Notes: a model not told the origin generated them from the sequence alone. A stretch of DNA of 64,000 bases from a virus (IMGVR_UViG_3300021958_000041:1-64000); one strand, 5' to 3'; shown: positions 21,121 to 64,000, counted from the first letter of the stretch. A program made the numbers and translations.

Positions 21121-21305
21121 CAAGCGAAGACGAAAGAGTTAATGCTATTGAGCAAGGCAGAAGACTGCTTATTGATTTAACCGAACCAAAGCTTACACCG
21201 CGCGTTCCTAAGAGCATAAGAGTGAGAGCGAAGGAAATAATAGAAAACTACCCAAGTGGTTTCGATTTTGTCTTAATAGAGAAAGGGTTAAAAGAAAATG
21301 GGTGA
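21117..21305 (+). CDS. Small conserved protein (BPSL0761-like)
   Basis: RRLLIDL...TPRVPKSIRVRA.....YP pattern. Confidence 0.5.
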   Translation: MTSEDERVNAIEQGRRLLIDLTEPKLTPRVPKSIRVRAKEIIENYPSGFDFVLIEKGLKENG

Positions 21306-48764: not shown

Positions 48765-51700
48765 ATGAGTTATTTAATATTCCCCTCTGGAGGTGGTGGT
48801 ACAGGCGCAACAGGTGCGGCAGGAGCTGATGGTGACACTATAGAAGCAGGAGCATCCGCTCCTAACACCGCAGGAGGAGCAGTAGGCAACAGGAGATACT
48901 GGCTTGATACATCCACAAATGAATTTTATTTCCTAGCGGCTAATGTTAGCCCTTCTCCTATTGGTAATTGGACAAAAATCGCAGACTTTAGTGGACCAAC
49001 TGGAGCCGCAGGCTCTAATGGGCTAAACGGAATTGACGGCGCTAGCGGAGACCAATGGACACATGCTCAATTGAACAATATAGCACCAAGTGATAAGGGT
49101 ACTGCGGATGTTTTTGATGAGTATCAATTAGATACAGATACTGGGAAGGTTTACCATTGTGCCGCTAACGGAAAAACATGGGCTTTGGTTGCTAATTTCA
49201 CAGGCCCTCAAGGTATACAAGGAACACAAGGTATTACTGGAAATGTTGGGCCAACTGGTTCGGCTGGAGCATCTGGAAGTCAATGGTCATCTGGAACAAA
49301 TGCTCCAAGTAACTCAAATGGTAACCATAATGATTTTTATTTTAAATCAGATGATAGGGGGATATATAAGAAAACTGATATATATGCTACCATAGCTGTA
49401 ACAATACCTACTTTTGCCGTAGGTGATGTAGTTGAATTTAATTATTTTGATGGAACATCTCAGCAAACAGCTACAATAACTATAGGCACTTCTGTAGTGT
49501 CAACAAATACAACATTTACCGCAGGAGCAGCTACAATTGCTCGCTCAGGCTCACAAAATACAGATGCCGCTGCAATAGTTGTACTTATTAATACTATATC
49601 TGGGTATTCCGCTACTAGAAATAATGCAGATATTACAATAACCGCAGATACCGCAGGAAATGCATATAATTCATTACTAGATATTACGTTATCAGGAACT
49701 ACTACGTCCACAAATGGCGTAGGCTCAATTTCTTGGGATTTACTAGCAACTATTAGTGATGGGCCTCAAGGAGCACAAGGCTTGACAGGAAATACTGGAT
49801 TAACTGGAGCTACTGGAGCTACTGGAAATACTGGAAATGACGGGGAAGACGGCTCATTATGGACTTCAGGCGTTACAGATAAATTGCCAAGCGAGGGAAA
49901 ATTAGGTGATTTTCATTTCAATACCCTAACATTTGACCTTTTTGAAAAAAGAGAAGTTCCACACATAAGTAAAATCACTATATCAAATCAAGAAGATGGC
50001 GTACTAGGTGTAGATTTTGATGCAAATGGAGAAATGCTTTTCGACTCTTTCGATGCAAATGAAAAAGCAACATACAAAAGAGATGTAAGTCCAGACCCAG
50101 ATTACATAGTTGTTTTCAATGATGATGATTCGCAATGGGAACTAAGATTGGATGATAAAGATGTAGATGGAAATTATCAATCATCTCATTTTGCATTTAA
50201 CCCTCTTAGCTCTTCGGACGATGGGTATTACCCAAACCCCTTGACATGGCTAGTAAACGCAACAAATTGGCCATCCTCTTCCGCTGCAGTTGGATTATTT
50301 GAAAATACCACTGCATCTTCTCAAAAAACAAATTGGTATACTGTTGTTAACCTAGAAGTTGGTGGAGCTGCAGGAGAAGGTGTTCCATCAGGTGGTACTG
50401 CTGGTCAGGTATTATCTAAAGCAACGGCAACTGACTTTGACACTACATGGGTAGATGCTGGTGGCGCTGGTACTAAATTAGAAGGATGGGAAACTGACAC
50501 TGACGGGAATTTAGTTCCTGAGAATGACCAAGCGCAAAATATTGGAAGTCCAACAAGACAGCTTCATAGCTTGTATGTCTCAGGCAAAAGTATTTATATA
50601 GATAATAAAAAATTAAGTGTAGACTCAGATAGTAATCTTTTTTACCAAACTGACGGAGGGTCAAAAGTATTACTAACTCAAGCCAATGGTACGGAGAGTA
50701 AAAGTGGAACTGCAAACATAACTGTAGGAACAGTTACCACAGGCGCTGCAGGAACGGATGCATCGGTATCGAATTCAGGGAATGCAACTGATGCAGTTTT
50801 TGATTTTACCATACCAAAAGGTGATGTCGGCCCAGCAGGCCCACAGGGAACGGCAGGATACAACGGTTCAATAAGCATAGAAGCAAGCGTATCAAATGCA
50901 AGCGCACTTCCGTCATCATTAGGTGCGGGGGACGCAGGAAAAGGATACATAACACAGAACGATGGAGCTTTACACTTATGGGATGGAACTAAATTCGTTA
51001 ATTTAGGAGCTGTTAGGGGAGAAAAAGGAGACACTGGTGACACAGGAGCTAGTTCTACTTTCATTCAGGGCACTACTGACCCTCAGGCATCGGATGGTAA
51101 TGATGGTGATTTATACATAAACACCAATTCTGGTGATTTATTCGGCCCAAAGAATACAACTTGGGGTAGTGCAATATCAAACTTGAAAGGTCCTGCGGGA
51201 ACGCGCGGAACTGATGGATTGAAGGGAAACGATGGAACCGCTGGTCAAGTAACAATTGGTACAGTAGCACATGGGTCTACTGCGGCAGTCACCAATACAG
51301 GAACTTCTTCGGTAGCTGTTTTAGATTTCGTATTACCCAAAGGTGATAAAGGAGAAAAGGGTGACCAAGGAAATACAAATGCTGTTACTATTACAGGAAA
51401 TGTAGCATCAAGCGCTAACCTACCATCAGGGTTAGGACTATCAGATACAGGTAATGGATATATTAGTAATGATACTAAAGAATTGCATGTATGGGTAGGT
51501 ACAGAATTTATAAATGTGGGAGGTGTACACGGCCCTGCTGGTGAAGACGGGAAAGGATGGACTTCAGGAGCATACGACCCATCTACTGGAATAACTTCAT
51601 TTGAGTCAGATGATGGATTAGGTTTTCAAACCACCGACATAAGAGGTTCAGGATGGACAAGCTCCAATCAAGCTCCTACGGGAGGAAAAAATGGAGACTT

Positions 51701-52478
51701 TCATTTTAATACTGCTACTAATAAATTCTACAAAAAAGTTTCTAATGTTTGGGAAGTTATAACAGATTTGCCTAAAAATTCAGGTACACCCGTAACAGCA
51801 ATCCTTCCTTTTGCGTTAGGCAAAATTACTGGCTCAATAGCAAATAGCCAAGTTGCATGTACTATAACGCAAAGCAGTAGTGGTGTATATGATGTCGCTT
51901 TTGCCACAGAGCAAGCTAATACTAACTACACCATATTTACTGACTCAGAGGGAATAAGCGTAGGTAGGGAGAAAATTTCAAATAAAACAACTAATGGATT
52001 CAGAATAGAGCATCTTGATAGTAGTAATGCTGTAATAAATGAAGATTGTTCTTTCATTTGCTTTGGCGAAAGTCCCCAAACGCATATTGGAACAACTGTA
52101 GAAGAAAACATTATTCTTGAACTGACAGAAGAATTTGGTCAGCCTCAAGCGGGAACAGTGATAAATGTAAAATCATTAAGACTACCTTATAACTTCAGAA
52201 TAACTGGCATGACTGCATGGTGTAATGCACCATTTGAGGACGCCCCTCAGGTCACGCTTTCAAATGAAATTAATGAAGATATTTTAACTCAGAACTTAAC
52301 TCTTCCAAGTAGTCATTTATCTTCAAATACCGCAGGCTCAAGCAATCAAGCAGTTGTTGATACTAGTAAAAGAGATATAGATGCATATAGCTTGATTCAA
52401 GTTGGAACAATTTGGTCTGATGGAAAATCTGGTCATGGCTTGAAAGTGGTTATCCAAGGAATAAGAACTTCTTTCTAA
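48765..52478 (+). CDS. Collagen-like tail fibre protein
   Basis: Multiple Gly-X-Y runs (for example GPQGIQGTQGITGNVGPTGSAGASG) separated by repeated small globular modules. Confidence 0.85.
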   Translation: MSYLIFPSGGGGTGATGAAGADGDTIEAGASAPNTAGGAVGNRRYWLDTSTNEFYFLAANVSPSPIGNWTKIADFSGPTGAAGSNGLNGIDGASGDQWTHAQLNNIAPSDKGTADVFDEYQLDTDTGKVYHCAANGKTWALVANFTGPQGIQGTQGITGNVGPTGSAGASGSQWSSGTNAPSNSNGNHNDFYFKSDDRGIYKKTDIYATIAVTIPTFAVGDVVEFNYFDGTSQQTATITIGTSVVSTNTTFTAGAATIARSGSQNTDAAAIVVLINTISGYSATRNNADITITADTAGNAYNSLLDITLSGTTTSTNGVGSISWDLLATISDGPQGAQGLTGNTGLTGATGATGNTGNDGEDGSLWTSGVTDKLPSEGKLGDFHFNTLTFDLFEKREVPHISKITISNQEDGVLGVDFDANGEMLFDSFDANEKATYKRDVSPDPDYIVVFNDDDSQWELRLDDKDVDGNYQSSHFAFNPLSSSDDGYYPNPLTWLVNATNWPSSSAAVGLFENTTASSQKTNWYTVVNLEVGGAAGEGVPSGGTAGQVLSKATATDFDTTWVDAGGAGTKLEGWETDTDGNLVPENDQAQNIGSPTRQLHSLYVSGKSIYIDNKKLSVDSDSNLFYQTDGGSKVLLTQANGTESKSGTANITVGTVTTGAAGTDASVSNSGNATDAVFDFTIPKGDVGPAGPQGTAGYNGSISIEASVSNASALPSSLGAGDAGKGYITQNDGALHLWDGTKFVNLGAVRGEKGDTGDTGASSTFIQGTTDPQASDGNDGDLYINTNSGDLFGPKNTTWGSAISNLKGPAGTRGTDGLKGNDGTAGQVTIGTVAHGSTAAVTNTGTSSVAVLDFVLPKGDKGEKGDQGNTNAVTITGNVASSANLPSGLGLSDTGNGYISNDTKELHVWVGTEFINVGGVHGPAGEDGKGWTSGAYDPSTGITSFESDDGLGFQTTDIRGSGWTSSNQAPTGGKNGDFHFNTATNKFYKKVSNVWEVITDLPKNSGTPVTAILPFALGKITGSIANSQVACTITQSSSGVYDVAFATEQANTNYTIFTDSEGISVGREKISNKTTNGFRIEHLDSSNAVINEDCSFICFGESPQTHIGTTVEENIILELTEEFGQPQAGTVINVKSLRLPYNFRITGMTAWCNAPFEDAPQVTLSNEINEDILTQNLTLPSSHLSSNTAGSSNQAVVDTSKRDIDAYSLIQVGTIWSDGKSGHGLKVVIQGIRTSF

Positions 52479-52479
52479 A

Positions 52480-55400
52480 ATGAGTACAAATTACCTCCAA
52501 GCACCACCTACGTCGGATGGTACTGTTTTAAGTACAACAACCCCTCTAGTATTCGGTAAGGAAAACTGCTTTCCTTATATAAAACTTTTTGCTACTGACT
52601 GGAGTGGATTAAAAGAAGAAGAAGTAGAAGCGTTAGGTGGACACCTTATGCAAATGAATCGTTTTGTAACAAAACATACGCAGGGTTTATCAAAAGAACA
52701 TTGGTCTCCAGAATGCATTAAAACTGTAAATAAGTTTTGGTATGACTCCAACCAATGGATGTATAATGTCCCAGAGGAATATAGAAAAATACTAGACCGA
52801 AGATATGAAAACTACGGACAGTATATAGGAAACTGGGAAAAAATTAATTTCACAACACCCGAAGAGCGAGTTGCGTGGGAAAATATAAATAATGCTGGCT
52901 TCCTAGACCCTGATGTTAATTTTAGTGCATTACCTCCGTGGGAAGACAATTCCTTGGAAGCAGTACTAGATAGAGGTGAGCTTCAAATTCAATCGGATAG
53001 AACTCAAAATAATTCTATTACTGGTAGTTTTTATCATGGTTTTGGGGATAATAAAAGGTTTGACTCAATGCTTATTGCATCCGCCAACAAGCCCGAATTA
53101 ACTGAGTTTGTCAGGCAGATTTCCTTTCACTTCAAGCACCATACTGATAAGTGGAATAAAGAGGGTCATAAATTTGACCCTAATAATTTACCTTATTATT
53201 CATCCTTTGCACATCAAATGAGTAGTGCGAGCGGTGGGGCTGAAAAAATATCTCATAATTTACTTGGTGATTTTGAGTGGGATGGAGTAGAGACAGAAGA
53301 TTTTGTGGAATCGGAAGGACTATTAAATGTAGCATTTGAACCCAAGAAAGTATTTAGAAACACATCAACAACTGGTGATTATAAGGATTATAGAATAGTT
53401 TGGCATTCACAAGGAATACCTGATTCAAATAATGCCCCAACTTGGGTTATAGCTACTGATAAAGTTGAAAGTAAGACTCATACTCTAGCAGGAGATATGG
53501 TTGTGGAGTTTCTTTCTGGAACACACAACATTAATGCAAGAAATTTGGGTTATCCAAGTGATGCTATTTCTTCAATAAAGGTAACACAGAATGGAATAAC
53601 TCATACCTATAGCTATACACAAGGGCCAAGAAGATTGGATAAAGATGGAAATCTACCAACAAAAGGTTTTCAAACAGACGAATACTTCTTTGCATCTAGC
53701 GTATATGACCAAGGTAACCTTACAGAAGTAGTTTATGACAACAATAAGGCCCCATCCAATAATTACCAAGGTAATTATTTGTACACCATTTGGCGAGAAG
53801 AAAGATTACAAATTATTCATAAAGATGGAGTTTTCCAAGGTATAGTCATTTCATACCTGAAAGATATGGAGACAACCTCTATTCAATTTAACAATAAAAC
53901 AAACCCTGACCCCTTAGACCCAAATAATCAAACTTGGTACAAGGAGTCATATACTTTTGATAATAATTCATTAATATCACGTGGTGATAAGTATATTTTA
54001 ACCTCCGACTATACTACGAAAACTCAACATACTGTTATTGATGACTTTTCGGGTGGCGTAGATAACTTAACAAACGGAAGCTCAAAGCATCCACCAAGTG
54101 TTTTTACTTACCAAGCAACAAGAACTCCTGCTTATTTTTACAACCAAAAAGAGCTTTATGACCCAAGTTGGTCTATATGTGCCGAACTACCTGATGTACT
54201 AGAAACTAAAGAATACTGCTTAATAGATACATATGACTATCACACTGAAGCTGGAGGTAGTCATACATGGAGAGGTATAAAGATTAGCTACTATCATGAT
54301 ACTGTCACATCTGGTAATTGTAATTTTTCAGTTCAAACTACCGATGTGAGCGGAGGGACAGCAACTAGACCAGCATTTACACAAGAAATTAAACATCAAA
54401 TAGATTTCAGTAATACAACTGCTCAAGGCGTAAGCATGAAAAGGTTCATTGCTTGCGTAAAATGCGATGGAGCCAACTCGCAGGTGGATTTGGTTTACAA
54501 TAGAGGAAGTGAAACAATAACAGGTACACTTGACTTCAATAAGACCGACCAACTGAAAGGCATAGTTGTCGGTATGCCTACAGACACAAGCCTAAATTAC
54601 TTACAAGGTGGATGGGAAGGCAAAATAGCAGAGCTATTTAATTCTGCAGCCACCTCAGGTGAAGATATTGATTCTATTGTTGGGTATTTATCGCATAAAA
54701 ATGGAATAGAACTTCCAGACACCCATCCATATTATGATTCCTGCCCATCAGGGTGTAAAATAATATGTGACCCATGTATGTATATAGATGAAGAAACATG
54801 CATAAGTATACCAGATGTGAATCCTACAATTAGGTATAGTGTAGACCAACCTTTTTTTAATCAAATAAACAAAAGTGGTGATTTTGGATTTGGGGTAACA
54901 TCAATTCCTTATTCTTCAAGGGAAGATGAAATCTATGATGGTGTTGCTGGCGAACGTATTGAGCAAAATGATGACAGGGTTGTTAGAGATAAACCTTACA
55001 CTGGCGAGAAAACAGTTGAAATAAAAAATTTAACACTAGACGGAAGACCCTGTGATATAACACATATATTAAGTTTATCAGGAATGATATATAGGAGTGA
55101 CGAGGATTGTCCAACTGGTTCTCCTACATTTTCCGCAAAGAAAGCAGTATGCTGTGAAGTTGATGATGTTGGTACAACTAAATTGATGGATTTTAATCAA
55201 GACTTCGACCAGACCCCTGGCGACTTCATGACAGATGAGGAAAAAACTAAGCTAGAAGAGCGTTGTAAAGCGTTAGGTAAGTCAGAGCAATATGACCATA
55301 TAGTTAATGGCGGAATAAGTGTTTTAAGCACAGGCGAGGTACCAATAAATGCAACTTATAACCCTGCAACAAAGAGGGTGATTCACTATATTAGTAGCCA

Positions 55401-56058
55401 CAATCCTGCATATCATAATCCAGAGCGTTACGATTTTGATAAAGAAGCTATGAATGAGCAATTTGATTGGCATACTGAAGCTAATTTTGGGGAATGCTTA
55501 GGTGAAGCATGCTGCCCAACAACTACAACTACCACGACTCGCCCGCCAATTCACCCAGTAGAATGCTTCGTAGACCCGAAGAAGGATGCAAATTGCAGAC
55601 CCTATCTTCAGGTAAAAGTAAAAATGACAGCACAAGGATTAGCTTCAGTAGGTCTAGCGAGTGATGGATGGGCTAGAGGTTTAGCAATATATGCAAACAC
55701 TACAGGTGATTGTGAGCTTGACCCTGACCCTAGTCCTTCTGGGAATAACGTTGAAGAATCTTTTACTAAATCTACATCCACTGAAGAAGAATTAGAACAA
55801 GGAAGTTCTAATTCAGTTATATCTGGAGGTATGGTAAGTAATTCAAGAACTTTCACAGTAGCTGCATCGTGTGGATGTAATACTCGATGGGTAGTAAAGT
55901 CATTAGGGTTGAACCCAGATGGTGCTAATCAACAACAAATACTATCAGGAAATGTCATTTGCGGTGGTGATTACTTTGTTTCAGAAGAAGAATGCGATGC
56001 GCTAGAATGCGAAACGACCACGACAACATCTACTACAACTCCTATTTATGGAGCATAG
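52480..56058 (+). CDS. Large virion protein with a LamG-like domain and a Cys-rich, poly-Thr C-terminus
   Basis: WEGKIAELF...IVGYLSHKNGIELPDTHPY is a LamG-type terminus. Many Cys and two Thr tracts follow. Confidence 0.6.
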   Translation: MSTNYLQAPPTSDGTVLSTTTPLVFGKENCFPYIKLFATDWSGLKEEEVEALGGHLMQMNRFVTKHTQGLSKEHWSPECIKTVNKFWYDSNQWMYNVPEEYRKILDRRYENYGQYIGNWEKINFTTPEERVAWENINNAGFLDPDVNFSALPPWEDNSLEAVLDRGELQIQSDRTQNNSITGSFYHGFGDNKRFDSMLIASANKPELTEFVRQISFHFKHHTDKWNKEGHKFDPNNLPYYSSFAHQMSSASGGAEKISHNLLGDFEWDGVETEDFVESEGLLNVAFEPKKVFRNTSTTGDYKDYRIVWHSQGIPDSNNAPTWVIATDKVESKTHTLAGDMVVEFLSGTHNINARNLGYPSDAISSIKVTQNGITHTYSYTQGPRRLDKDGNLPTKGFQTDEYFFASSVYDQGNLTEVVYDNNKAPSNNYQGNYLYTIWREERLQIIHKDGVFQGIVISYLKDMETTSIQFNNKTNPDPLDPNNQTWYKESYTFDNNSLISRGDKYILTSDYTTKTQHTVIDDFSGGVDNLTNGSSKHPPSVFTYQATRTPAYFYNQKELYDPSWSICAELPDVLETKEYCLIDTYDYHTEAGGSHTWRGIKISYYHDTVTSGNCNFSVQTTDVSGGTATRPAFTQEIKHQIDFSNTTAQGVSMKRFIACVKCDGANSQVDLVYNRGSETITGTLDFNKTDQLKGIVVGMPTDTSLNYLQGGWEGKIAELFNSAATSGEDIDSIVGYLSHKNGIELPDTHPYYDSCPSGCKIICDPCMYIDEETCISIPDVNPTIRYSVDQPFFNQINKSGDFGFGVTSIPYSSREDEIYDGVAGERIEQNDDRVVRDKPYTGEKTVEIKNLTLDGRPCDITHILSLSGMIYRSDEDCPTGSPTFSAKKAVCCEVDDVGTTKLMDFNQDFDQTPGDFMTDEEKTKLEERCKALGKSEQYDHIVNGGISVLSTGEVPINATYNPATKRVIHYISSHNPAYHNPERYDFDKEAMNEQFDWHTEANFGECLGEACCPTTTTTTTRPPIHPVECFVDPKKDANCRPYLQVKVKMTAQGLASVGLASDGWARGLAIYANTTGDCELDPDPSPSGNNVEESFTKSTSTEEELEQGSSNSVISGGMVSNSRTFTVAASCGCNTRWVVKSLGLNPDGANQQQILSGNVICGGDYFVSEEECDALECETTTTTSTTTPIYGA

Positions 56059-56060
56059 TT

Positions 56061-56870
56061 ATGTCACTGAATTCATTTTGTGCTGTCGCAAATAGTAAGT
56101 ACAAAAAAGAAGCTGCTTTTTTAATATATTCAATACGAGCATTTTACGAACACCCGATACTGCTGTATTGCGATGTTGACACGAGACAATATTTAAAAGG
56201 TTTTGGATTTAAGAATATATTCTATCGTGACCATTTAAATCAGACAAAACTTGGTGAGATAAACCAAAAAGTAGTTCACGTAAAACGTCACAATGAGTTC
56301 CATTCTCCTGAGTATATATACTTAAAGATGGACGCTATGGAGGAAGCCATATCAAACTTTGGAAATACATTGTTTGTTGATTCTGATATATGCATAGTAA
56401 GACCAATTGCTAATGAAATGCCAATTGATGATTTGGGACTATCGCCCCATTATAGCGAGCGTAATTATGTTAAGAGTACAATTGCGTTTGGAATCTTTAA
56501 TGCAGGCTATGTATACGCACAGAACAAAGAAGTACCACAAGAATGGAAGCATATATATTTAAATGAATCTAAGTTTTACGAGCAAGAAGGTATGTATAAA
56601 CTTATGAATAAATTTAAATTTTCTATTTTTGATAAAACACACAATGTAGGATTTTGGAGATTCAATCAGCAATGGACGAATGGCAGTTTAGTTAAGTCAA
56701 GCTTGCAAGGTGTAGATAAATCCAATGTAAAATCTTGGCATTTTCACATAGATATGGACACATACAAAAGTGCTGATAAAGTGTTAAGAGATGGATATAA
56801 ACAAATATACGATGAAATTATATTATCTTTGCCACAACATATGAAATGGTTTTTAAAGAAACTGACATGA
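56061..56870 (+). CDS. GT-A nucleotide-diphospho-sugar transferase
   Basis: YLKMDAM...TLFVDSDI (DxD), FNAGYV, YEQ, NVGFWR, HFH. Start reassigned to ATG 56061. Confidence 0.75.
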   Translation: MSLNSFCAVANSKYKKEAAFLIYSIRAFYEHPILLYCDVDTRQYLKGFGFKNIFYRDHLNQTKLGEINQKVVHVKRHNEFHSPEYIYLKMDAMEEAISNFGNTLFVDSDICIVRPIANEMPIDDLGLSPHYSERNYVKSTIAFGIFNAGYVYAQNKEVPQEWKHIYLNESKFYEQEGMYKLMNKFKFSIFDKTHNVGFWRFNQQWTNGSLVKSSLQGVDKSNVKSWHFHIDMDTYKSADKVLRDGYKQIYDEIILSLPQHMKWFLKKLT

Positions 56871-58435
56871 TTAATTATGTTTATTGCAGTACTAATCCCG
56901 ACCAAAAGAAATTAGCACAAGGTATAATTAATTATTCATTTGTAAGTGGATGTCCTATATATGACCAATATTCATCAGGAGATTACGGGGCAGAAATTGT
57001 AAGCAAATTAACAGGTAAAATTTTTGTGCAATGGATGATTGCAATTTCAGATTTAGAGAAAATAGCTAAACCAGATTGGTACTTTTGGGTTGGTGTAGAT
57101 TATTTAAATTATTTAAAAAGCGGAAAACAGCCAGCTAATGTTAAGTACATAGCAAATTGTTACCATGTACAGCAGAAATTACTCGAAGATTATGGAATAA
57201 AATCGCGCGTAATATCAAGAATTGGTAAAGCTGTAGAGATTAAGAAAACTTTTCTCGATTTTAAAAAAATAAGAATCGGTATACTCGATGTATGGCATGA
57301 ATCATATAAACATAAAGAAATATATGATAATTTAAATACTTCCTTAATAAAAGACTTTGAGCTTTTTGGCACAGGGCAAGGAGAATATAAATTACACGAC
57401 AACACTTTATTAGATTCAGAAATTAAAGAAAAATGTCCATATATAAGATTATGCGAATTTAATACACTTGATATGGATGTGTTACTCGTAAGTAATTTTG
57501 GTAATGAAAGTAATATTAATAAATGTTTAAATGATGGAGTTCCAGTTGTTTCTGTACCAAGCATATATGCGCTAGATTTAGAAAAGAAATACAGTTGCAT
57601 AAGTATTGCACGAGGTGGTAACTGGGGGGATGCGGTAATTAAGTCCTTAAGCCCACAAATAGTAAACGGGAGAAAGCAAATAGCTAGTCTAACATCAGAT
57701 GAGCAGATGCAAAATATTTTTCATAGCTATAGCGCGAAGCTCGATTTAAGGCATAGAAAATTAAATAAAATAAATATCTTTGGTATGTTTAGAAATAATG
57801 AAGATACTATTGGCAAAACGCTTTCATATCTTAAAATAAATGAGAGAAAAATAAACGTGCCATGCTCTTACTATCTATATGAAAATGATAGTGATGATGA
57901 TACTCCCGAACAAATTAAGGAATTTTATAGACATACGAACGGAAAATATAAAAGTGAAATACTTGGGAATAAAATGCATGCAGGAACCTCACGCCCTGAA
58001 AGATTGAGAGACTTAGCAATATATAGAAATAAGATGAAAGAGCTATGCGATGATTGGTCAAGTGAGTATAGTTTCATAATTGACAGTGAGATAGACTTTC
58101 CTTCTGATATATTTATAAAAATGATTACAACCTTAGAGTCTCATAAGGATTGTGTTATGGTAACACCTTTCGGGACTCATGAATATAACAATGAATATTA
58201 TGATATTTTTGCATACCTTAATAAGCAAGGGGAGAAGACGCCCCCTTCACCCCAGCGTATATCGGAAGCTAATTCCGCTTTTTCAGGGTTTGCGTGCATT
58301 AAAACCAGCGTATTTGAGAAGTGTCATTGGAACGCTCTTGCTGATGTTAGCGAACATATCTTCTTTTGCGATATGGTGCGTCAGTACGGAAAAATAATCA
58401 TAGACCCATCAATTAAGGTAACTTGGAAAAAGTGA
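56867..58435 (+). CDS. Two-domain glycosyltransferase (GT-B-like N-terminus, GT-A/Anp1-like C-terminus)
   Basis: N-terminal KCLNDGVPVVS (GT-B-like). C-terminal YLYENDSDDDT, LAIYRN, FIIDSEI, YYDIFAY, NSAFSGFA, SEHIFFC. Start at 56867 (ATGA overlap). Confidence 0.65.
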   Translation: MINYVYCSTNPDQKKLAQGIINYSFVSGCPIYDQYSSGDYGAEIVSKLTGKIFVQWMIAISDLEKIAKPDWYFWVGVDYLNYLKSGKQPANVKYIANCYHVQQKLLEDYGIKSRVISRIGKAVEIKKTFLDFKKIRIGILDVWHESYKHKEIYDNLNTSLIKDFELFGTGQGEYKLHDNTLLDSEIKEKCPYIRLCEFNTLDMDVLLVSNFGNESNINKCLNDGVPVVSVPSIYALDLEKKYSCISIARGGNWGDAVIKSLSPQIVNGRKQIASLTSDEQMQNIFHSYSAKLDLRHRKLNKINIFGMFRNNEDTIGKTLSYLKINERKINVPCSYYLYENDSDDDTPEQIKEFYRHTNGKYKSEILGNKMHAGTSRPERLRDLAIYRNKMKELCDDWSSEYSFIIDSEIDFPSDIFIKMITTLESHKDCVMVTPFGTHEYNNEYYDIFAYLNKQGEKTPPSPQRISEANSAFSGFACIKTSVFEKCHWNALADVSEHIFFCDMVRQYGKIIIDPSIKVTWKK

Positions 58436-58960
58436 ATGAAAGAAAGGATAATACAAGCAAGTCCTGGCCACACAGGAAGTACTATTCTAGTAAATTTACT
58501 ATATGGTTTATTAGAACCAAATTCCGATGTGAACTTTCAAGGTAAAACTGAGAACCTTGGAAAAAAATTTATTACCAAAACGCATAAACTGAACCTTGAT
58601 TCCATCATCAATAATTTAAAAGATAATGAAATATATTTTGTAATGTCAGAAAGGAACGACAAGAAAGTAAAAAAACTGATAAATCAAAAATACAGAAACT
58701 ATAAAAATGTATTAATATTCAATTTTTTTGAATTACTTGAAACTGAAAATAATACTATCTCCCAGATATGCATAAATGCAGAAAAGAAGCTAAGAAAGTT
58801 TTTACCTACGACAGCATTGAAATATGCAAAAGGTGATTTGCAAACAATGAAAAATAGAATAATTGCCATGAATGCGACTTATGAAAAAATTAAAAACGAA
58901 CCTTTTTCATATGTAAATAAGTTTTATCATATTCATGGCTCACATAGAAACAGGAAGTAA
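58436..58960 (+). CDS. Sulfotransferase-like protein
   Basis: ASPGHTGSTILVNLL (5'-PSB-like loop), FITKTH, SER. Confidence 0.55.
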   Translation: MKERIIQASPGHTGSTILVNLLYGLLEPNSDVNFQGKTENLGKKFITKTHKLNLDSIINNLKDNEIYFVMSERNDKKVKKLINQKYRNYKNVLIFNFFELLETENNTISQICINAEKKLRKFLPTTALKYAKGDLQTMKNRIIAMNATYEKIKNEPFSYVNKFYHIHGSHRNRK

Positions 58961-58964
58961 AGCT

Positions 58965-59636
58965 ATGATAGACACTAAAAATAAAATAATTTTCATTCAC
59001 ATACCTAGAACTGGAGGTTCTCAATTTAGTAATCATTATTATAATGATGTTCTCTCAGAGCATTTGCCCGTTGAAATATATAGCAATTATTGCAGTTACG
59101 GAGACTTTGACGCAAAGCATTTTAGGTATAAAGATTACAAGCATTTTATTGGTCCTAAAATAAATGAATATAAGATTGTTACTGTTGTAAGAAATTCATA
59201 TGACCTAGCAGTATCTAATTGGATGATGCATTACAATTCGCTAGAAACAAAGAGTGAGGCGTCAAAAGAATTTTGTAAAGATTTTACTTCTTTTGTTGGG
59301 TGGTTAGAGCATCAGAAAAAAGCAGGGAATAAGCACCCCAACTGGACTTTTCTAAGTCCTTATAATTCAATGAAGCAATTAGAATACATAGAGGGTGCAG
59401 AGAATTGCGAAATCATTAGATACGAAAATTACAACCAAGACGTTCGTAAGTTTTTCCTCAACAATTTTGGTATAGAAACTAAATTAAAAAGATACACCAA
59501 TGATGAGTTGAGGAAAAGAGAATCTTATAAAAACAGAAAAATGAACTATTCAATTTATTATGATTCTGACTTAAAAAAAAGAATAGAAAATTTGTATAGA
59601 AAAGAAATAGATTATTTTGATTATAAAATAGAGTGA
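58965..59636 (+). CDS. Sulfotransferase family 2 (carbohydrate sulfotransferase-like)
   Basis: IIFIHIPRTGGS (5'-PSB), VRNSYDLAVS (3'-PB), IIRYEN, YRKEIDYFDY. Start reassigned to ATG 58965. Confidence 0.82.
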   Translation: MIDTKNKIIFIHIPRTGGSQFSNHYYNDVLSEHLPVEIYSNYCSYGDFDAKHFRYKDYKHFIGPKINEYKIVTVVRNSYDLAVSNWMMHYNSLETKSEASKEFCKDFTSFVGWLEHQKKAGNKHPNWTFLSPYNSMKQLEYIEGAENCEIIRYENYNQDVRKFFLNNFGIETKLKRYTNDELRKRESYKNRKMNYSIYYDSDLKKRIENLYRKEIDYFDYKIE

Positions 59637-60454
59637 TGAAGAATTATATTTTATATAGACTAGGAGATGACGGAATAGGTTGTACTTTATTAAGGTTTGC
59701 ATATTTGAATAAGGTATTTCCAGACAAGAAAATAATAATCAGTCCTGAAAGTTGGTGTTATTTTGACAATAATTATGATTATGATGAAATTGCAAAAGTA
59801 TTTAATTTCCACCCTAAAGCAATTTTAGCACCGCAAGTAATAAGCAAAATTAAAAAGGAACAAATTTTAAATCCAAGAGCAAAAACAAAAAAGGATTCAT
59901 ATTATGAATTAATTCAAAGCTATAATACAAAAGGATTAACAGCTATAGAAATCATTAATTCTACTGAGATTAATGAAGGTAATTTATTATTTTCACTTAA
60001 AGAACAGCCATCAATGCCATTAAATGCTTCTAATTTAGTAGGTGTACATGCAAGACTTGGTAATGGTGAACTCAGAGTGGATGGAACTTTGATTCCGAGA
60101 ATGAATGTATTAATGGAAACTTTCATAAAAAACATGAAAAAGTTTGAAACAAATAATTTTTATGTATGCTCAGATACAGAAAGTTTTATTGATTTGTGTA
60201 AAAAAGAATTTGGCAAAAGAATTATAACGCAATCAAGATTTTATGCGCCAAGAGGTCAAGGGCCAGGACATAAACGTAAATTAAGGAAACAACACATGAA
60301 TCCAGTTGAGCAAATAAAGGAAGCCTTAATAGACATAACTCTATTATCAAAATGCACACATTTAATATGCAACGGAAGCGCCTTTGTTAAATTTGCTAAA
60401 AGTAAAATTAAAAAAGAAAATATTAAAGATGTCAGATGTAAAAAATTTTTATAA
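59633..60454 (+). CDS. Fucosyltransferase-like GT-B enzyme (NodZ/GT23/O-FucT-like)
   Basis: VGVHARLGN, FYVCSD, EALIDITLLSKCTHLI..GSAF. Confidence 0.72.
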   Translation: MMKNYILYRLGDDGIGCTLLRFAYLNKVFPDKKIIISPESWCYFDNNYDYDEIAKVFNFHPKAILAPQVISKIKKEQILNPRAKTKKDSYYELIQSYNTKGLTAIEIINSTEINEGNLLFSLKEQPSMPLNASNLVGVHARLGNGELRVDGTLIPRMNVLMETFIKNMKKFETNNFYVCSDTESFIDLCKKEFGKRIITQSRFYAPRGQGPGHKRKLRKQHMNPVEQIKEALIDITLLSKCTHLICNGSAFVKFAKSKIKKENIKDVRCKKFL

Positions 60455-61343
60455 AATAAAAAAGCACTTTGAAAGGTGCGAACACCCTGAAAAGTTTTTC
60501 CAAAAAAGGAAAAAACAGTTCAATAGTATAGATGTATCAGAAAGTAGAAACATACAGGGTGGAAGCTTTATAATAGATAATATAGTATATATTAATTTAG
60601 ATTCAGCAGTAGAGCGCAGAAAAGAAACAGAAAAAGCTTTCAAGTCAGCAAACATTAAAAGCTTCGATAGATTTTCTGCGATAGCGGGAATAGATTACCC
60701 TACGATGAGCGCACTAACTCTTGTCGCAGAAAATAAAACCACAAATTTATTGGATGTAGGTGACAGACTAACTTGGGACAATGCAACAATATGGGATGAG
60801 GGGAAAACAGAACGTATCCTAAATAGATTAAAGTTCAGAAATAAGGCAGCTGCTGTTATTTCCCATTCAAAGTTATTGGATTTGTGTGTAAATAAATATA
60901 ATAATTGGGTACTAGCATTTGAGGATGATTTTACTTTGAACTATAATTTTGAAGAATTTTTAGAAAAAGTAAGACCATTAACGGAAAAATATGACTTCAT
61001 AGTAACAGAGTCACGACAAGGTCTATCACAAAGAAACGGAACAGGAATTGGAGCTTGCGGATATATGTATAATTGCTCGAAAATTCCAAAAGATTTCAAA
61101 AAATATTATTGTGTATCAGATTCAAAATATTTTTCAGATTACACGGCAAAGCCAGTATATATGACAATGAGTGCGGACTTACGTCTCCATAATTCGTTAA
61201 GGCGCGCAAATATCAGAGTCACACATATGGAGGAGCCATTTGTAAATAGTTATGGACTGCATGGATTTTCGCAGTCTGATAGTAGTTACCGAGCAAGCAC
61301 AATAGCGGTAAATCCAAAGCTGAATTGTTTCAATGAAGGGTAA
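60429..61343 (+). CDS. Glycosyltransferase family 25-like
   Basis: VYINLDSAVERR...RFSAIAG...SHSKL...LAFEDDF...GACGY. Start reassigned to ATG 60429. Confidence 0.8.
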   Translation: MSDVKNFYKIKKHFERCEHPEKFFQKRKKQFNSIDVSESRNIQGGSFIIDNIVYINLDSAVERRKETEKAFKSANIKSFDRFSAIAGIDYPTMSALTLVAENKTTNLLDVGDRLTWDNATIWDEGKTERILNRLKFRNKAAAVISHSKLLDLCVNKYNNWVLAFEDDFTLNYNFEEFLEKVRPLTEKYDFIVTESRQGLSQRNGTGIGACGYMYNCSKIPKDFKKYYCVSDSKYFSDYTAKPVYMTMSADLRLHNSLRRANIRVTHMEEPFVNSYGLHGFSQSDSSYRASTIAVNPKLNCFNEG

Positions 61344-61357
61344 GTAGAGCGGTAGCT

Positions 61358-61858
61358 ATGGAGAAAACATTAATAAATCACGTATGCTCTTTAGGCTTTA
61401 ATTGCATGCCATCCTTTTTCCTACAAGCACAATCTTTAAAAATAAAAAGCTACCCAATTGATTGGTGTTTTAGTAGTCAGAAAGCAATAAGATATTGTAT
61501 AAAAAATAAGTTCAAGGATTTTTTAAATACAGATTTGCATAAACGTTATCCGAAAAACAAAAACTATATATATAATATTAAAACTAAAATAATTTACCCA
61601 CATGGTCGTCATCCACTCAACGATATGCCATATTATGAAAGGTGCGTTGCGAGATTTAATAAAATGATTGAAAGTGGGGAGCCAATCCTTTTCGTTACAA
61701 GTTTCAAAAAAAGAAATCTACTCGAAGCTGAACTCAGGAAATTGAATGAAAACATTTATTTTATTGAAATTCATGGAAGGAGAAAAGAAGTTGAAAGCTT
61801 GCATTTGATTAACAAAGAATACGATTTAAGAAAAAAATACGAAATAAAATTAAAATGA
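61358..61858 (+). CDS. DUF1796-like putative papain-fold cysteine peptidase
   Basis: SLGFNC...SYPIDW...YPH...YERCVARF. Confidence 0.65.
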   Translation: MEKTLINHVCSLGFNCMPSFFLQAQSLKIKSYPIDWCFSSQKAIRYCIKNKFKDFLNTDLHKRYPKNKNYIYNIKTKIIYPHGRHPLNDMPYYERCVARFNKMIESGEPILFVTSFKKRNLLEAELRKLNENIYFIEIHGRRKEVESLHLINKEYDLRKKYEIKLK

Positions 61859-63126
61859 AAAAATTAACAATAGGTTCCGCAGTATACGATGACCCTGAAG
61901 GTGTGTGGTACACATATCAATCATTGCGATTGAATAATAAAGATATATTAGACCAAATAGATTTTATAGTAGTCGATAACCACCCAACAGGATTGCCATC
62001 TAAAGATACAAGAGCAATATGTAGAGACTTATCAATAAATTACATCCCTAGTGGAGAGCGCAGGACAACGGCTATAAGGAATAAGATATTTGAAAATTCT
62101 AAAACTCCTTGGACTATGTGCATTGATAGCCATGTATTATTCGAACCTGAAACAATTAAAAACCTAATAAACTGGTTGGATAAAAATCCTGATTGTGAAG
62201 ACTTAATACAAGGTCCACTCCTATATGATTTTTTCGATAAAGAAAAATCCATATCAACTCACATGAACCCGACTTGGCGCTCATATATGTATGGAATTTG
62301 GGCAAGAGATGAAAGAGGAGAAGATATTAATGGTGAGCCTTTTGAGATACCAATGCAAGGATTAGGTGTATTTGCCTGTAAGACAGACAAATGGCTACCA
62401 TTTCACCCCTTATTTAAAGGATTTGGTGGCGAGGAAGGATATATACATGAGAAGTTCAGGAAAGCAGGAAGAAAAACATTATGCCTACCTTTCTTGAGGT
62501 GGTTGCATAAATTCAGGAAATCTGAGCCAGTACCTTATCCAAATATAGTAGAGGAAAGAATTCACAATTATACAATTGGTCATTTGGATAATGGAAAGAA
62601 TTTAGACTCAATGAGAAAACATTTTGAAGAAAATTTAGGAGCGTTGAAAACAAGAAACTCAATTGAGTCAGCGGAAGAAATATTTAAAGCTCACAAAGAA
62701 GACCCAGAGATGATAGAGCAGATGTTTTTTGAGAACGACAGCATAGAGGTAGCGCCCAAGCCTCCAAAAGAAGATGTCGAACCTAGAGATTTAGCTTGGT
62801 CAGGAGTTATTATTACCCGACCAAAGAATGCAGACAAAATTAAGAAAGTCCGTGTAATACCTAAAAAATCGTTATTAGATAAAGTCTACCTAACTCCCTT
62901 AAGTGTATATAATAAAGAGAAAGGCAAGTACCAACCCAAAGCGAATAAGGAGTTTACAAAAGAAGGATTCGTACTTGATGTAGGAGAAGCTATAGATTTT
63001 GAATTTGACGAAAAATTCGAGACTAATTCATTTGAAATATATCCCGCCAAAGACCCTTTACATATAAGGCATATGGAGGTCTTTTACACTCTAGATAATA
63101 AAGAGTGGACTCAATTCGTATTTTAG
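61855..63126 (+). CDS. Glycosyltransferase family 2 with an extra C-terminal domain
   Basis: LTIGSAVYDD, FIVVDN, RNKIF, CIDSHV, GFGGEEGYIH. Confidence 0.78.
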   Translation: MKKLTIGSAVYDDPEGVWYTYQSLRLNNKDILDQIDFIVVDNHPTGLPSKDTRAICRDLSINYIPSGERRTTAIRNKIFENSKTPWTMCIDSHVLFEPETIKNLINWLDKNPDCEDLIQGPLLYDFFDKEKSISTHMNPTWRSYMYGIWARDERGEDINGEPFEIPMQGLGVFACKTDKWLPFHPLFKGFGGEEGYIHEKFRKAGRKTLCLPFLRWLHKFRKSEPVPYPNIVEERIHNYTIGHLDNGKNLDSMRKHFEENLGALKTRNSIESAEEIFKAHKEDPEMIEQMFFENDSIEVAPKPPKEDVEPRDLAWSGVIITRPKNADKIKKVRVIPKKSLLDKVYLTPLSVYNKEKGKYQPKANKEFTKEGFVLDVGEAIDFEFDEKFETNSFEIYPAKDPLHIRHMEVFYTLDNKEWTQFVF

Positions 63127-63129
63127 TTA

Positions 63130-64000
63130 ATGGATAACGAATTAGCTCATGAAGGCAGGCTAGCGCTAACAAAGCAGGCTCGCTCAGATTTAATGGCTTA
63201 TGTATTAGCCAATGACCCTCTGTATATACCCTCAAAAGTTCATGTATATTTATGTGATAAGTTGCAAAAGCTAATCGAATCTAAAGGTGAACGTAGGCTC
63301 ATTATAAATATGCCCCCACAGCATGGTAAGAGTAGACTTGTTGCTGAAGAGTTTGCTTCCTATCTACTTGGAATAGACCCGTCTCAAAATATTGTAATTG
63401 CTGGATACAACACTGAGCTGCCATTAAAAAACTCAAAATCTATTCGCAGGCGCTTTGATAGTGATACATACAGAGCTATTTTCCCAAAATCAAAAATGTC
63501 TGCTGACACTAGAACTGCAAACAATTGGATGACTACCGAATTAGGTGGAATTAGAGCAGTTGGTCTAGGCGCAGGATTGACGGGAAATCGAGCGTCATGT
63601 CTTATTATTGATGACCCGCACAAGGATAGAGCCGCAGCGGAATCTCTTACATCCAGAGAACATGTTTGGGATTGGTATCAATCAGTTGCTATGACACGAC
63701 TAACTCCTGATAGTATAGTTATAATAATTATGACTAGATGGCATGAAGATGATTTAGTAGGAAGATTGAGTGATGAAAAATACATCGAGCAATTAACATC
63801 TCAAGGTTTTGAAAATCAAGTATATGAAATCATTAACTTTCCAGCAATTTGCGAAGACGAAGATAATGATATGCTAGGCAGGAAAAATGGTGAAGCATTA
63901 TGGCCTGAAAATAAAGATACAAACTTTATAGAAGCGAGAAAAGTTATGCTTACTCCGTATGAATATAATGCACTATACAGAGGTAATCCAGTATCCAAAG
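63130..64000 (+). CDS. terL: Terminase large subunit (5' part, runs off the window, not in the ORF track)
   Basis: My translation from ATG 63130: RLIINMPPQHGKS (Walker A), GAGLTG, LIIDDPHKD (Walker B), IIIMTRWHEDDL. Confidence 0.92.
   Translation, partial: MDNELAHEGRLALTKQARSDLMAYVLANDPLYIPSKVHVYLCDKLQKLIESKGERRLIINMPPQHGKSRLVAEEFASYLLGIDPSQNIVIAGYNTELPLKNSKSIRRRFDSDTYRAIFPKSKMSADTRTANNWMTTELGGIRAVGLGAGLTGNRASCLIIDDPHKDRAAAESLTSREHVWDWYQSVAMTRLTPDSIVIIIMTRWHEDDLVGRLSDEKYIEQLTSQGFENQVYEIINFPAICEDEDNDMLGRKNGEALWPENKDTNFIEARKVMLTPYEYNALYRGNPVSK

What the first reader, a model, noticed from the sequence alone, without database searches (positions are those of the whole stretch)
56061..63126. Seven-kb glycan-building island (five GT-type genes, a fucosyltransferase-like gene among them, plus two sulfotransferases and a peptidase) between tail fibres and terminase
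Seen: eight tightly coupled ORFs encoding GT-A, a GT-B/GT-A fusion, two sulfotransferases, a NodZ/GT23-like FucT, GT25, a DUF1796-like protein and GT2. They follow the last fibre gene by 2 nt, with no terminator seen between. Established: some mycobacteriophages glycosylate their virions using phage-encoded GTs, and giant viruses build fibril glycans. Inference: this is a late-expressed, complete pathway for a sulfated, fucosylated oligosaccharide on virion proteins. Such a coat could shield the particle or mimic the sulfated fucan-type glycans that aquatic bacteria bind. I know of no sulfated virion glycan described for a tailed phage. The alternative is host-surface (receptor) modification.
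Basis: partly seen in the sequence, partly recalled or inferred. Interest (0 to 1): 0.85.

Follow-up and report, generated by a model that had tools for sequence, protein, structure and literature searches.

The report
Phage glycan-building island beside poly-threonine fibres
An uncultured estuarine tailed phage carries eight tightly packed genes for sugar-adding and sulfate-adding enzymes right after a tail-fibre gene that ends in a threonine run, and one of these enzymes belongs to a family that in many other phages sits directly behind poly-threonine proteins, so the phage probably sugar-coats its own tail, though no sugar has been measured.

Summary
At 56061-63126 there are eight co-oriented genes, abutting or overlapping (gaps -26 to +14 nt). 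They lie 2 nt after the last fibre-like gene and 3 nt before the large terminase gene. All eight products lack a hydrophobic stretch long enough for a membrane helix.

Tested identities:
- O1: GT8-like GT-A fold.
- O2: GT-B plus GT-A fusion.
- O4: Sulfotransfer_2.
- O5: NodZ/FUT8-type GT23 fucosyltransferase (family profile against NodZ, E 2e-29).
- O6: GT25.
- O7: DUF1796.
- O8: GT2-type enzyme with an invariant DxH motif.
- O3: only sulfotransferase-like, from language-model and structure look-alikes.

New evidence for a protein target concerns O8. In 80 IMG/VR loci with an O8 relative, the gene directly upstream carries a poly-Thr or (Thr/Ser)n tract in 42 of 78 cases, against 3% at distant positions (p = 1e-29). 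This phage has such tracts only in tail proteins, one at the C-terminus of the adjacent fibre.

The "complete pathway" claim fails, because no Pfam match to APS kinase or to the NAD-dependent epimerase/dehydratase family was found. The link of O1-O7 to the same glycan rests on operon context alone.

Rival readings are host-surface remodelling, a split function and a DNA glycan. This scan has flagged similar cassettes on other DNA before.

The parts
38651..40303 (+). Tail-module protein (550 aa) with an N-terminal Gly6-Thr9 tract (Thr codons 38690-38716). Candidate glycan acceptor.
   Evidence: Second gene after the tape-measure gene. The tract and its mixed Thr codons are shown.
48765..52478 (+). 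Collagen-like tail fibre protein (1237 aa)
   Evidence: PHROG tail fibre families, best E 1.5e-42
52480..56058 (+). Last fibre-like protein (1192 aa, Cys-rich). It has an internal CCP-T7-RPP tract (55519-55539) and a C-terminal T5-S-T3 tract (56014-56040). Candidate glycan acceptor.
   Evidence: Translation; tracts and mixed codons; no PHROG or PDB sequence match
56061..56870 (+). O1: GT8-like retaining-type GT-A glycosyltransferase (269 aa) with an invariant DxD (D107, D109)
   Evidence: No Pfam hit; 28 homologues; invariant columns; model pLDDT 90; Foldseek to glycogenin, LARGE1, LgtC and XXYLT1 at E about 1e-8; Atlas look-alikes GT8/Nucleotid_trans
56867..58435 (+). O2: two-domain enzyme with an N-terminal compact GT-B fold and a C-terminal GT-A (conserved YENDSxDDTP, DSEI, SEH)
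   Evidence: Alignment A2; model pLDDT 82; VIA-align gives res 3-294 against PimA Z 15.2 and BshA Z 15.0, and res 299-529 against Mnn9 Z 19.4 and COLGALT1 Z 17.1
58436..58960 (+). O3: small P-loop protein (174 aa), sulfotransferase-like. Weak assignment.
   Evidence: No HMM support. Atlas feature score 0.95-0.97 and structural TM 0.60 to viral sulfotransferase clusters. Missing from relative L210.
58935..59636 (+). O4: Sulfotransfer_2-family sulfotransferase (233 aa)
   Evidence: Pfam PF03567 23.9 bits (cut-off 22); phrog_3347 E 3e-8. A gene of this kind follows the full-length O2 homologue in L164, L210, L212, L213 and L216.
59636..60454 (+). O5: GT23 (NodZ/FUT8-type) alpha-1,6-fucosyltransferase-like enzyme
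   Evidence: Only 66 relatives among 1.84 billion representatives. Profile A3 hits NodZ 2HHC at E 2.3e-29 over the full length and FUT8 at E about 7e-8. H139, R141 and D181 are invariant. 16 of 30 family members match Pfam NodZ at E <= 0.01.
60429..61343 (+). O6: GT25-family glycosyltransferase
   Evidence: Pfam PF01755 39.6 bits (cut-off 24); 95% identical in relative L002/L163. GT25 domains are fused to O8-family domains in P0070, P0080 and L082.
61358..61858 (+). O7: DUF1796 protein (166 aa); role unknown
   Evidence: Pfam PF08795 37.9 bits (cut-off 23); no PDB match
61855..63126 (+). O8: GT2-type GT-A enzyme with invariant D41-N42, D91-x-H93 and GFGGEEGYIH, plus a C-terminal ~130-aa domain that is weakly discoidin-like. 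Proposed initiating protein O-glycosyltransferase.
   Evidence: Pfam PF00535 34.8 bits; family of at least 3788 proteins; alignment A1; the C-terminal domain of relatives matches CBM32 modules; poly-Thr neighbours
63130..64000 (+). Large terminase subunit (runs on to 64545 of the genome)
   Evidence: Pfam Terminase_6N; phrog_38 E 6e-62; full length 471 aa

Best explanation
The island is a set of soluble, phage-encoded transferases made together with the tail and packaging proteins. It most likely builds an O-linked glycan on the phage's own tail proteins in the host cytoplasm before assembly.

Proposed steps:
1. O8 puts the first sugar on the poly-threonine tracts of the 550-aa tail protein and the last fibre-like protein.
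2. O6 (GT25), O1 (GT8-like), O2 (GT-B plus GT-A) and O5 (GT23 fucosyltransferase-like) extend and branch the glycan.
3. O4, and perhaps O3, add sulfate.
4. All donors (UDP-sugars, GDP-fucose, PAPS) come from the host.

What is shown: the gene arrangement, the enzyme classes, and the statistical link between the O8 family and poly-Thr proteins.

What is inferred: the acceptor, the order of steps, the sugar identities, sulfation, and the claim that all eight enzymes act on one glycan.
For: 1. Arrangement. Eight genes are abutting or overlapping and sit 2 nt after the fibre gene and 3 nt before TerL. None has a membrane-helix-length hydrophobic stretch, and GC3 matches the rest of the genome, so this is a resident gene set and not a fresh import.

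2. O8 family and poly-Thr neighbours. In 80 IMG/VR loci the ORF directly upstream (same strand, usually 11-14 nt away) has a poly-Thr/(TS)n tract in 42 of 78 cases. The figures are 13 of 69 at -2, 2 of 78 at +1 and 14 of 483 at positions +/-3 to 6 (Fisher p = 1e-29). After dereplication at 90% identity, 28 of 54 clusters keep the tract at -1.

3. Controls. Tract density is 60 per 100,000 residues in these loci. It is 0 in 243,000 residues of viral loci found with the O2 domain and 0.5 per 100,000 in loci found with O1.

4. Nature of the neighbours. Where those poly-Thr proteins match a PHROG with a stated function, it is a virion part: tail, head, Hoc-like decoration (twice) or major tail protein.

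5. This genome. Runs of seven or more Thr/Ser-only residues occur only in two tail-module proteins, and one ends the gene that abuts the island. About 8e-5 runs of seven or more threonines are expected by chance, and the codons are mixed.

6. Bacterial relatives. The O8 domain is fused to PqqD (a peptide-recognition domain), to HPr-kinase-like domains and to GT25 domains. It lies beside an NTP_transf_5 nucleotidyltransferase-like gene in 29 of 80 loci, and beside ~200-aa proteins with C-terminal poly-Thr tails. HPr-kinase homologues and nucleotidyltransferases are known peptide-tailoring enzymes (PMC8498205).

7. Synteny. O5-O6-O7-O8-TerL is kept in relative L163, and O2-O4-O6 in L210. In the unrelated phage L164 an O2-like gene, a sulfotransferase-like gene, a GT32 and a GT90 sit between terminase and portal.

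8. Lifestyle. No integrase or resolvase was found.
Against: - There is no chemistry. Nothing shows that any virion protein is modified.
- In this phage O8 is seven genes away from the poly-Thr gene, not directly behind it as in the common two-gene module.
- The O1 and O2 families are not linked to poly-Thr elsewhere. The L164 phage, which has the O2-sulfotransferase cassette, has no Thr6 tract in the 79% of its genome that is held.
- O3 has no HMM support.
- O5 itself scores below Pfam's NodZ cut-off (21.3 against 28.3 bits).
- Similar GT clusters in cyanophages are usually read as host cell-wall modifiers (PMC12801897).
- Late expression is inferred from gene order only.
Confidence: 0.5

Rival explanations
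1. Split function. O8 (perhaps with O6) glycosylates the poly-Thr tail proteins. O1-O5 and O7 act on a different acceptor, such as a host envelope glycan or another virion protein without Thr runs.
For: Only the O8 family tracks poly-Thr. O1-family and O2-domain loci show 0.5 and 0 tracts per 100,000 residues. The O2-sulfotransferase pair recurs as its own unit in L164, L210, L212, L213 and L216. L164 lacks Thr6 tracts. O8 is only 44% identical in relative L163 while O6 is 95% identical, so the parts have different histories.
Against: All eight genes sit in one unbroken, overlapping string in this lineage. O1 and O2 homologues occur together on 13-kb and 81-kb contigs. L331 has O1-like and O8-like genes 1.5 kb apart.
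Confidence: 0.2
2. Host-surface remodelling. The enzymes alter LPS, capsule or another envelope glycan of the infected cell, for example to stop progeny or competing phages from adsorbing.
For: GT25, GT2, GT8 and GT4-like folds are typical of LPS and capsule synthesis. In one bacterium the O8 domain is fused to Stealth, LicD and cytidylyltransferase domains, a capsule or teichoic-acid type context (L121). Cyanophage GT clusters are read this way in PMC12801897.
Against: None of the eight island products has a membrane-helix-length hydrophobic stretch, so the island encodes no membrane-bound priming transferase, flippase or polymerase. No integrase was found, so classic lysogenic conversion is unlikely. 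The position is at the very end of the late string. This reading does not explain the O8-poly-Thr link.
Confidence: 0.17
3. DNA glycan. The island extends a sugar modification on the phage DNA before packaging.
For: The genome has two TAGT-type glycosyltransferases, three ParB_N proteins and a C5 cytosine methyltransferase. Phage GTs related to LPS enzymes put mono- to trisaccharides on 5hmC, and such clusters can lie near terminase genes (bioRxiv 10.1101/2023.12.21.572611). The island abuts TerL.
Against: No Tet/JBP dioxygenase or thymidylate-synthase-like enzyme was detected in the genome. The TAGT genes lie 35 kb away in the replication module. The cited paper names no sulfotransferase or fucosyltransferase. 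This reading does not explain the poly-Thr link.
Confidence: 0.06

Closest known systems
Mycobacteriophage virion glycosylation (Che8, Corndog, Myrna; Freeman et al. 2023, Cell Host Microbe 31:1216). I know it only through citing papers PMC12619734 and PMC12801897; the paper itself is not held.
   Same: Phage-encoded glycosyltransferases, and glycans at the C-termini of virion subunits.
   Different: The acceptors there are the capsid and tail-tube proteins of actinobacteriophages. Here the candidate acceptors are tail and fibre proteins with pure Thr runs. This island also has different enzyme families, a GT23 fucosyltransferase-like enzyme and sulfotransferase(s). Nothing here has been measured.
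Mucin-type O-glycosylation started by polypeptide GalNAc-transferases (CAZy GT27) and protist GT60 polypeptide alpha-GlcNAc-transferases
   Same: A GT-A enzyme with a DxH metal motif joined to a carbohydrate-binding type module, paired with dense Thr tracts.
   Different: O8 matches only Pfam GT2. The GT60 model PF11397 finds nothing in the genome. The appended module is discoidin/CBM32-like, not a ricin-type lectin. The enzyme is cytoplasmic and not Golgi-resident. The resemblance is in how it would work, not in family membership.
NodZ (rhizobial Nod-factor alpha-1,6-fucosyltransferase) and FUT8, CAZy GT23
   Same: The O5 family profile aligns over the full length of NodZ (E 2e-29) and keeps the GVHxRxGNGE, CxD and ALxDxxLLxxC motifs.
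   Different: O5 is shorter (272 aa) and its family is rare (66 relatives in 1.84 billion representatives). Donor and acceptor are untested.
Giant-virus glycan machineries (chlorovirus capsid glycans, mimivirus fibril glycans; PMC9614988, PMC10117803)
   Same: A virus-encoded multi-enzyme set proposed to decorate virion surface proteins. O1 and O3 look-alike clusters are commonest in Nucleocytoviricota, and the O2 GT-A half resembles mimivirus R699.
   Different: The host here is a bacterium and the virus is a tailed phage. This phage has no detected sugar-nucleotide synthesis genes of its own.
Phage DNA sugar hypermodification clusters (Pyle et al., bioRxiv 10.1101/2023.12.21.572611)
   Same: Several phage GTs derived from LPS or teichoic-acid enzymes, sometimes near terminase genes.
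   Different: Those clusters lie beside 5mYOX or ThyS enzymes. None was detected here, and the island lies apart from the genome's TAGT genes.

Membership tests
CAZy GT23 / Pfam NodZ (O5) | Sequence match to the family over the catalytic region | tested here: met
   Profile of 30 relatives hits NodZ 2HHC at E 2.3e-29 (positions 3-275 against 4-298) and FUT8 at E about 7e-8. 16 of 30 relatives match Pfam NodZ at E <= 0.01. O5 alone scores 21.3 bits, below the 28.3 cut-off.
CAZy GT23 / Pfam NodZ (O5) | Conserved motif I (HxRxGNGE, with the essential Arg) and the two following motifs | tested here: met
   H139, R141 and D181 are invariant. G143, N144, G145 and E146 are nearly invariant. These columns align with the NodZ motifs.
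CAZy GT23 / Pfam NodZ (O5) | Transfer of fucose from GDP-fucose to O-6 of GlcNAc | not testable with these tools
   Needs an enzyme assay.
Pfam Glyco_transf_25 (O6) | HMM score above the curated cut-off | tested here: met
   39.6 bits against a cut-off of 24.
Pfam Glycos_transf_2 (O8) | HMM score above the curated cut-off, and an acidic metal-binding motif | tested here: met
   34.8 bits against 23.3. D91-x-H93 and D41 are invariant in 22 sequences.
CAZy GT60 polypeptide GlcNAc-transferases (Pfam PF11397) (O8) | Match to the family model | tested here: not met
   No match to PF11397 at E <= 10 anywhere in the genome. Only PF00535 was found for O8 at E <= 1.
CAZy GT27 polypeptide GalNAc-transferases (O8) | GT-A catalytic domain with DxH plus a C-terminal ricin-type lectin domain | tested here: not met
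   DxH is present, but the C-terminal domain of relatives is F5/8 type C (CBM32-like). The A1 profile finds no PDB chain for the catalytic part.
CAZy GT8 (O1) | Retaining GT-A fold of the glycogenin/LgtC type with a DxD motif | tested here: inconclusive
   Fold match at Foldseek E about 1e-8, TM 0.54-0.61. D107 and D109 are invariant. There is no Pfam GT8 hit and no PDB hit by profile.
Pfam Sulfotransfer_2 (O4) | HMM score above the curated cut-off | tested here: met
   23.9 bits against 22; phrog_3347 E 3e-8. The PAPS-binding motifs were seen by eye only (IPRTGGS, VRNSYDLAVS).
Sulfotransferases (O3) | Match to any sulfotransferase model | tested here: not met
   No Pfam or NCBIfam hit. PF13469 finds nothing in the genome. 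No similarity to O4. Only Atlas look-alikes support it, at TM 0.60.
Pfam DUF1796 (O7) | HMM score above the curated cut-off | tested here: met
   37.9 bits against 23. Peptidase activity is only a name and was not tested.
Phage virion glycosylation systems (mycobacteriophage type) | Phage GT genes within or next to the virion structural genes | tested here: met
   The island abuts the fibre gene and TerL.
Phage virion glycosylation systems (mycobacteriophage type) | Glycan demonstrated on virion proteins | not testable with these tools
   Needs mass spectrometry of virions. The phage is uncultured.
Phage DNA sugar hypermodification clusters | A GT next to an enzyme that makes a hydroxymethyl-pyrimidine (5mYOX/TET or ThyS-like) | tested here: not met
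   PF12851 and PF00303 find nothing in the genome. The TAGT genes are at 18.8-22 kb, far from the island.

The most novel reading that the evidence does not exclude
A tailed phage builds a fucosylated, sulfated, mucin-like O-glycan on the poly-threonine tracts of its tail fibres, using only its own cytoplasmic transferases. The initiating enzyme would belong to a large undescribed family (at least 3788 proteins, 402 viral contigs, 361 bacterial species) that serves as a general poly-Thr protein glycosylation system in phages and bacteria.
Probability: 0.3. Interest if true: 0.85.

Novelty: new variant of a known kind. Interest (0 to 1): 0.7.

Why it matters
Virion glycosylation by phage-encoded enzymes has been shown experimentally only for mycobacteriophages. 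I found no report of a sulfated glycan on a tailed phage, and one paper states that the function of phage sulfotransferases 'remains unclear' (PMC10580990).

If the reading holds, three things follow:
- Many aquatic phages would carry sugar-coated tails or heads. That bears on adsorption, stickiness to marine polysaccharide gels, protection from proteases or grazers, and how phage particles are counted and captured.
- The pairing of poly-Thr tags with the O8 family gives a concrete, cheap test: one enzyme plus one peptide in E. coli.
- A soluble cytoplasmic enzyme that glycosylates simple Thr tags could become a tool for protein engineering.

Tried and rejected
The 52-87 kb contigs that hold the closest O1 and O2 homologues (P0143, P0144, P0146, P0223, P0225) could therefore not be fetched. 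I could not test whether the island and the Thr tracts are gained and lost together in close relatives.
- blastn of the island against GenBank phages found no match. tblastn of O8 and of P0068 also found none.
- Scans with single proteins O8, TerL and O5 found only the one relative L002/L163, or nothing.
- The promoter and terminator scans were uninformative.
- No RNA holder was listed among the sequencing runs.
- Laid contigs show the island in estuary and marine runs, but they cannot show transcripts.
- PDB sequence searches gave nothing significant for O1 (profile), O2 (profile), O4, O6, O7, the fibre or the bacterial poly-Thr protein.
- The GT60 model, Sulfotransfer_3, APS kinase, Epimerase, integrase, resolvase, Tet_JBP and thymidylate synthase models all found nothing in the genome.
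- O3 against O4 showed no similarity.
- O6 against the GT25 parts of P0070 and L082 showed only weak pairwise similarity. The fusion argument therefore holds at family level only.
- Complex prediction was not used, since an enzyme-substrate pair is a poor case for it.
- The idea that the island's low GC marks a recent import was rejected. GC3 is the same as in the rest of the genome.

Full report
**Setting.** The window is the first 64 kb of an 85,196-bp IMG/VR virus record. The two ends of the record are identical over 127 bp, and CheckV rates it complete. Almost all genes lie on the + strand. The order is replication genes, portal, protease, capsid, tape measure (32891-37918), tail and fibre genes up to 56058, the island, the large terminase (63130-64545), then small and DNA-metabolism genes. 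It is a siphovirus-type phage of about 35% GC. Near-identical DNA occurs in estuary and marine metagenomes from 2016-2025, in 17 studies. No tyrosine or serine integrase is detectable.

**The observation.** Eight + strand genes fill 56061-63126.
- With starts refined from alignments, neighbouring genes overlap by 4 to 26 nt, share a single base (O4/O5), abut, or are at most 14 nt apart.
- The first gene starts 2 nt after the fibre-like gene, and TerL starts 3 nt after the last.
- Terminator-like sites are no more common than in shuffled sequence.
- No product has a hydrophobic stretch long enough for a membrane helix.
- The island's lower GC (0.30-0.32 against 0.36-0.41) comes from amino-acid composition. 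Third-position GC (0.19-0.30) equals that of the capsid, portal and fibre genes (0.23-0.29). The island is therefore resident, not freshly imported.

**What the enzymes are.**
- O1 has no Pfam hit. With 26 homologues it folds confidently (pLDDT 90) into a GT-A fold. That fold is closest to the GT8 enzymes glycogenin, LARGE1, LgtC and XXYLT1, and it has an invariant DxD.
- O2 is a fusion. Residues 3-294 form a compact GT-B fold (PimA Z 15.2, BshA Z 15.0). Residues 299-529 form a GT-A fold (Mnn9 Z 19.4, COLGALT1 Z 17.1). Conservation is strong only in the GT-A half.
- O4 passes Pfam's Sulfotransfer_2 cut-off and matches a PHROG named galactose-3-O-sulfotransferase.
- O3 is a small P-loop protein. 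Only the language-model and structure look-alikes are sulfotransferases. No HMM agrees.
- O5 belongs to a rare family, with 66 relatives among 1.84 billion representatives. The family profile aligns with the whole of NodZ at E 2e-29 and with FUT8 at E 7e-8, and the GT23 motifs are conserved.
- O6 (GT25), O7 (DUF1796) and O8 (GT2) pass their Pfam cut-offs.
- The genome has no match to Pfam's APS kinase or NAD-dependent epimerase/dehydratase models. The island therefore holds transferases only, not a complete pathway.

**The new evidence.**
- *Size of the O8 family.* O8 belongs to a large family. It has at least 3788 proteins in the metagenome collection, 402 IMG/VR contigs and 361 bacterial species. 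None of it appears in the GenBank phage collection.
- *Architecture.* The catalytic part has invariant D41-N42, D91-x-H93 and GFGGEEGYIH. Many members carry a C-terminal F5/8 type C domain that matches CBM32 sugar-binding modules.
- *Poly-Thr neighbours.* I called ORFs in the 80 fetched viral loci and searched for threonine runs. The gene directly upstream of the O8 relative, on the same strand and usually 11-14 nt away, carries a poly-Thr or (Thr/Ser)n tract in 42 of 78 loci. The rate is 19% two genes upstream, 3% directly downstream and 3% at positions 3-6 on either side. The Fisher p-value is 1e-29.
- *Dereplication.* At 90% identity, 28 of 54 clusters keep the pattern.
- *Controls.* Viral loci fetched with other island enzymes have almost no such tracts: 0 in 243,000 residues for the O2 domain and 0.5 per 100,000 for O1, against 60 per 100,000 for O8.
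- *Nature of the neighbours.* The few poly-Thr neighbours that match a PHROG with a stated function are virion parts: tail, head, Hoc-like decoration and major tail protein.
- *Bacterial relatives.* In bacteria the same catalytic domain sits in multidomain proteins with PqqD, HPr-kinase-like or GT25 domains. It lies next to NTP_transf_5 genes and next to ~200-aa proteins with a twin-arginine-type signal and a C-terminal poly-Thr tail. HPr-kinase homologues and nucleotidyltransferases are known to tailor the C-terminal serine of lasso peptides (PMC8498205).

Together these results point to a protein or peptide substrate, namely threonine runs.

**Back to this phage.** Runs of seven or more Thr/Ser-only residues occur only in two tail-module proteins:
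- G6-T9 near the N-terminus of the 550-aa protein;
- CCP-T7-RPP inside the last fibre-like protein;
- T5-S-T3 eleven residues from the end of that same protein, just before the island.

About 8e-5 runs of seven or more threonines are expected by chance, and the codons are mixed, so replication slippage does not explain them. The common two-gene module elsewhere is a poly-Thr protein followed directly by the O8 enzyme. Here it appears with seven further enzyme genes between the two partners.

**How far the rest of the island is tied in.**
- O5-O6-O7-O8-TerL is kept in the one close relative in IMG/VR, at 80, 95, 73, 44 and 84% identity.
- A Tara contig has O2-O4-O6 without O3 and O5.
- O1 and O2 homologues share contigs of 13 and 81 kb.
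- The full-length O2 homologue is followed at once by a Sulfotransfer_2-like gene in five other contigs. One is an unrelated lambda-type phage where the cassette (O2-like, sulfotransferase-like, GT32, GT90) sits between terminase and portal. That phage has no Thr6 tract in the part held.
- GT25 domains are fused to O8-family domains in three proteins.

The O2-sulfotransferase pair is thus a unit of its own that repeatedly lands in virion or packaging modules. Its acceptor is not shown to be the Thr tracts.

**Rivals.**
- A split function (O8 on the tail proteins, the rest elsewhere) fits the family-level data and is the main alternative.
- Host-envelope remodelling fits the enzyme families and the usual reading of cyanophage GT clusters (PMC12801897). 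It does not explain the poly-Thr link, the soluble-only enzyme set or the position in a phage without an integrase.
- A DNA glycan is conceivable because the genome has TAGT-type enzymes, ParB-like proteins and a cytosine methyltransferase, and because phages can put oligosaccharides on 5hmC (10.1101/2023.12.21.572611). However, no TET/JBP or ThyS-like enzyme is detectable, and the TAGT genes lie 35 kb away.

**Standing.** Phage sulfotransferases are known as genes of unclear function (PMC10580990). Virion glycosylation is known from mycobacteriophages (cited in PMC12619734). My literature searches found no description of poly-Thr-directed glycosylation or of sulfated glycans on tailed phages. 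Earlier notes of this same scan report similar pairings on many other genomes. This is therefore a further, unusually elaborate case of a recurring theme, not a lone oddity. Everything beyond gene content and association statistics remains inference.

Noticed in passing
L121:4423-5025 (also L132, L142, L118, L104, L115 and L133 among the bacterial loci): Next to multidomain O8-family glycosyltransferases, bacteria encode ~200-aa proteins with a twin-arginine-type signal (RRLLAGGAAITAGLG) and a C-terminal poly-Thr/Ser tail. This suggests glycosylation in the cytoplasm followed by Tat export. L101 has four such paralogues in a row.
   Followed up: partly
L086:4243-6846, L101:5020-6864, L121:5047-7824, P0070, P0080: The O8-type catalytic domain appears in very different fusions: DUF6065 plus an HPr-kinase-like domain; GT25 plus PqqD; and Stealth plus LicD plus a cytidylyltransferase. 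An NTP_transf_5 gene is a neighbour in 29 of 80 bacterial loci.
   Followed up: partly
window 63130-64000 and genome 64545 onwards: The large terminase gene sits at the end of the tail-fibre and island string, about 44 kb (going round the circle) from the portal gene at 22505. This is an unusual order for a siphovirus-type genome.
   Followed up: no
window 55735-60425 (run X5): In one estuary run, a strain whose fibre-like gene is almost identical (0-2 differences in 3.2 kb) differs by 2-5% in O1-O2 and by 7-20% in O4-O5. The island thus diverges or recombines faster than the fibre gene.
   Followed up: no
genome 76840-78818 (L162:14841-16819): An Amidoligase_2 gene is followed by a GATase_6-like gene, a pair often seen in phages and of unknown role here.
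   Followed up: no
window 18854-19600 and 21298-22053: There are two TAGT-type (TET-associated) glycosyltransferases with ParB_N neighbours, but no Tet/JBP or ThyS-like enzyme is detectable anywhere in the genome.
   Followed up: partly
L331:9809-12954: Another viral contig has an O1-like domain inside a 564-aa protein, followed by a 197-aa gene and an O8-like gene, after a 1461-aa protein. No strict poly-Thr tract lies nearby.
   Followed up: no
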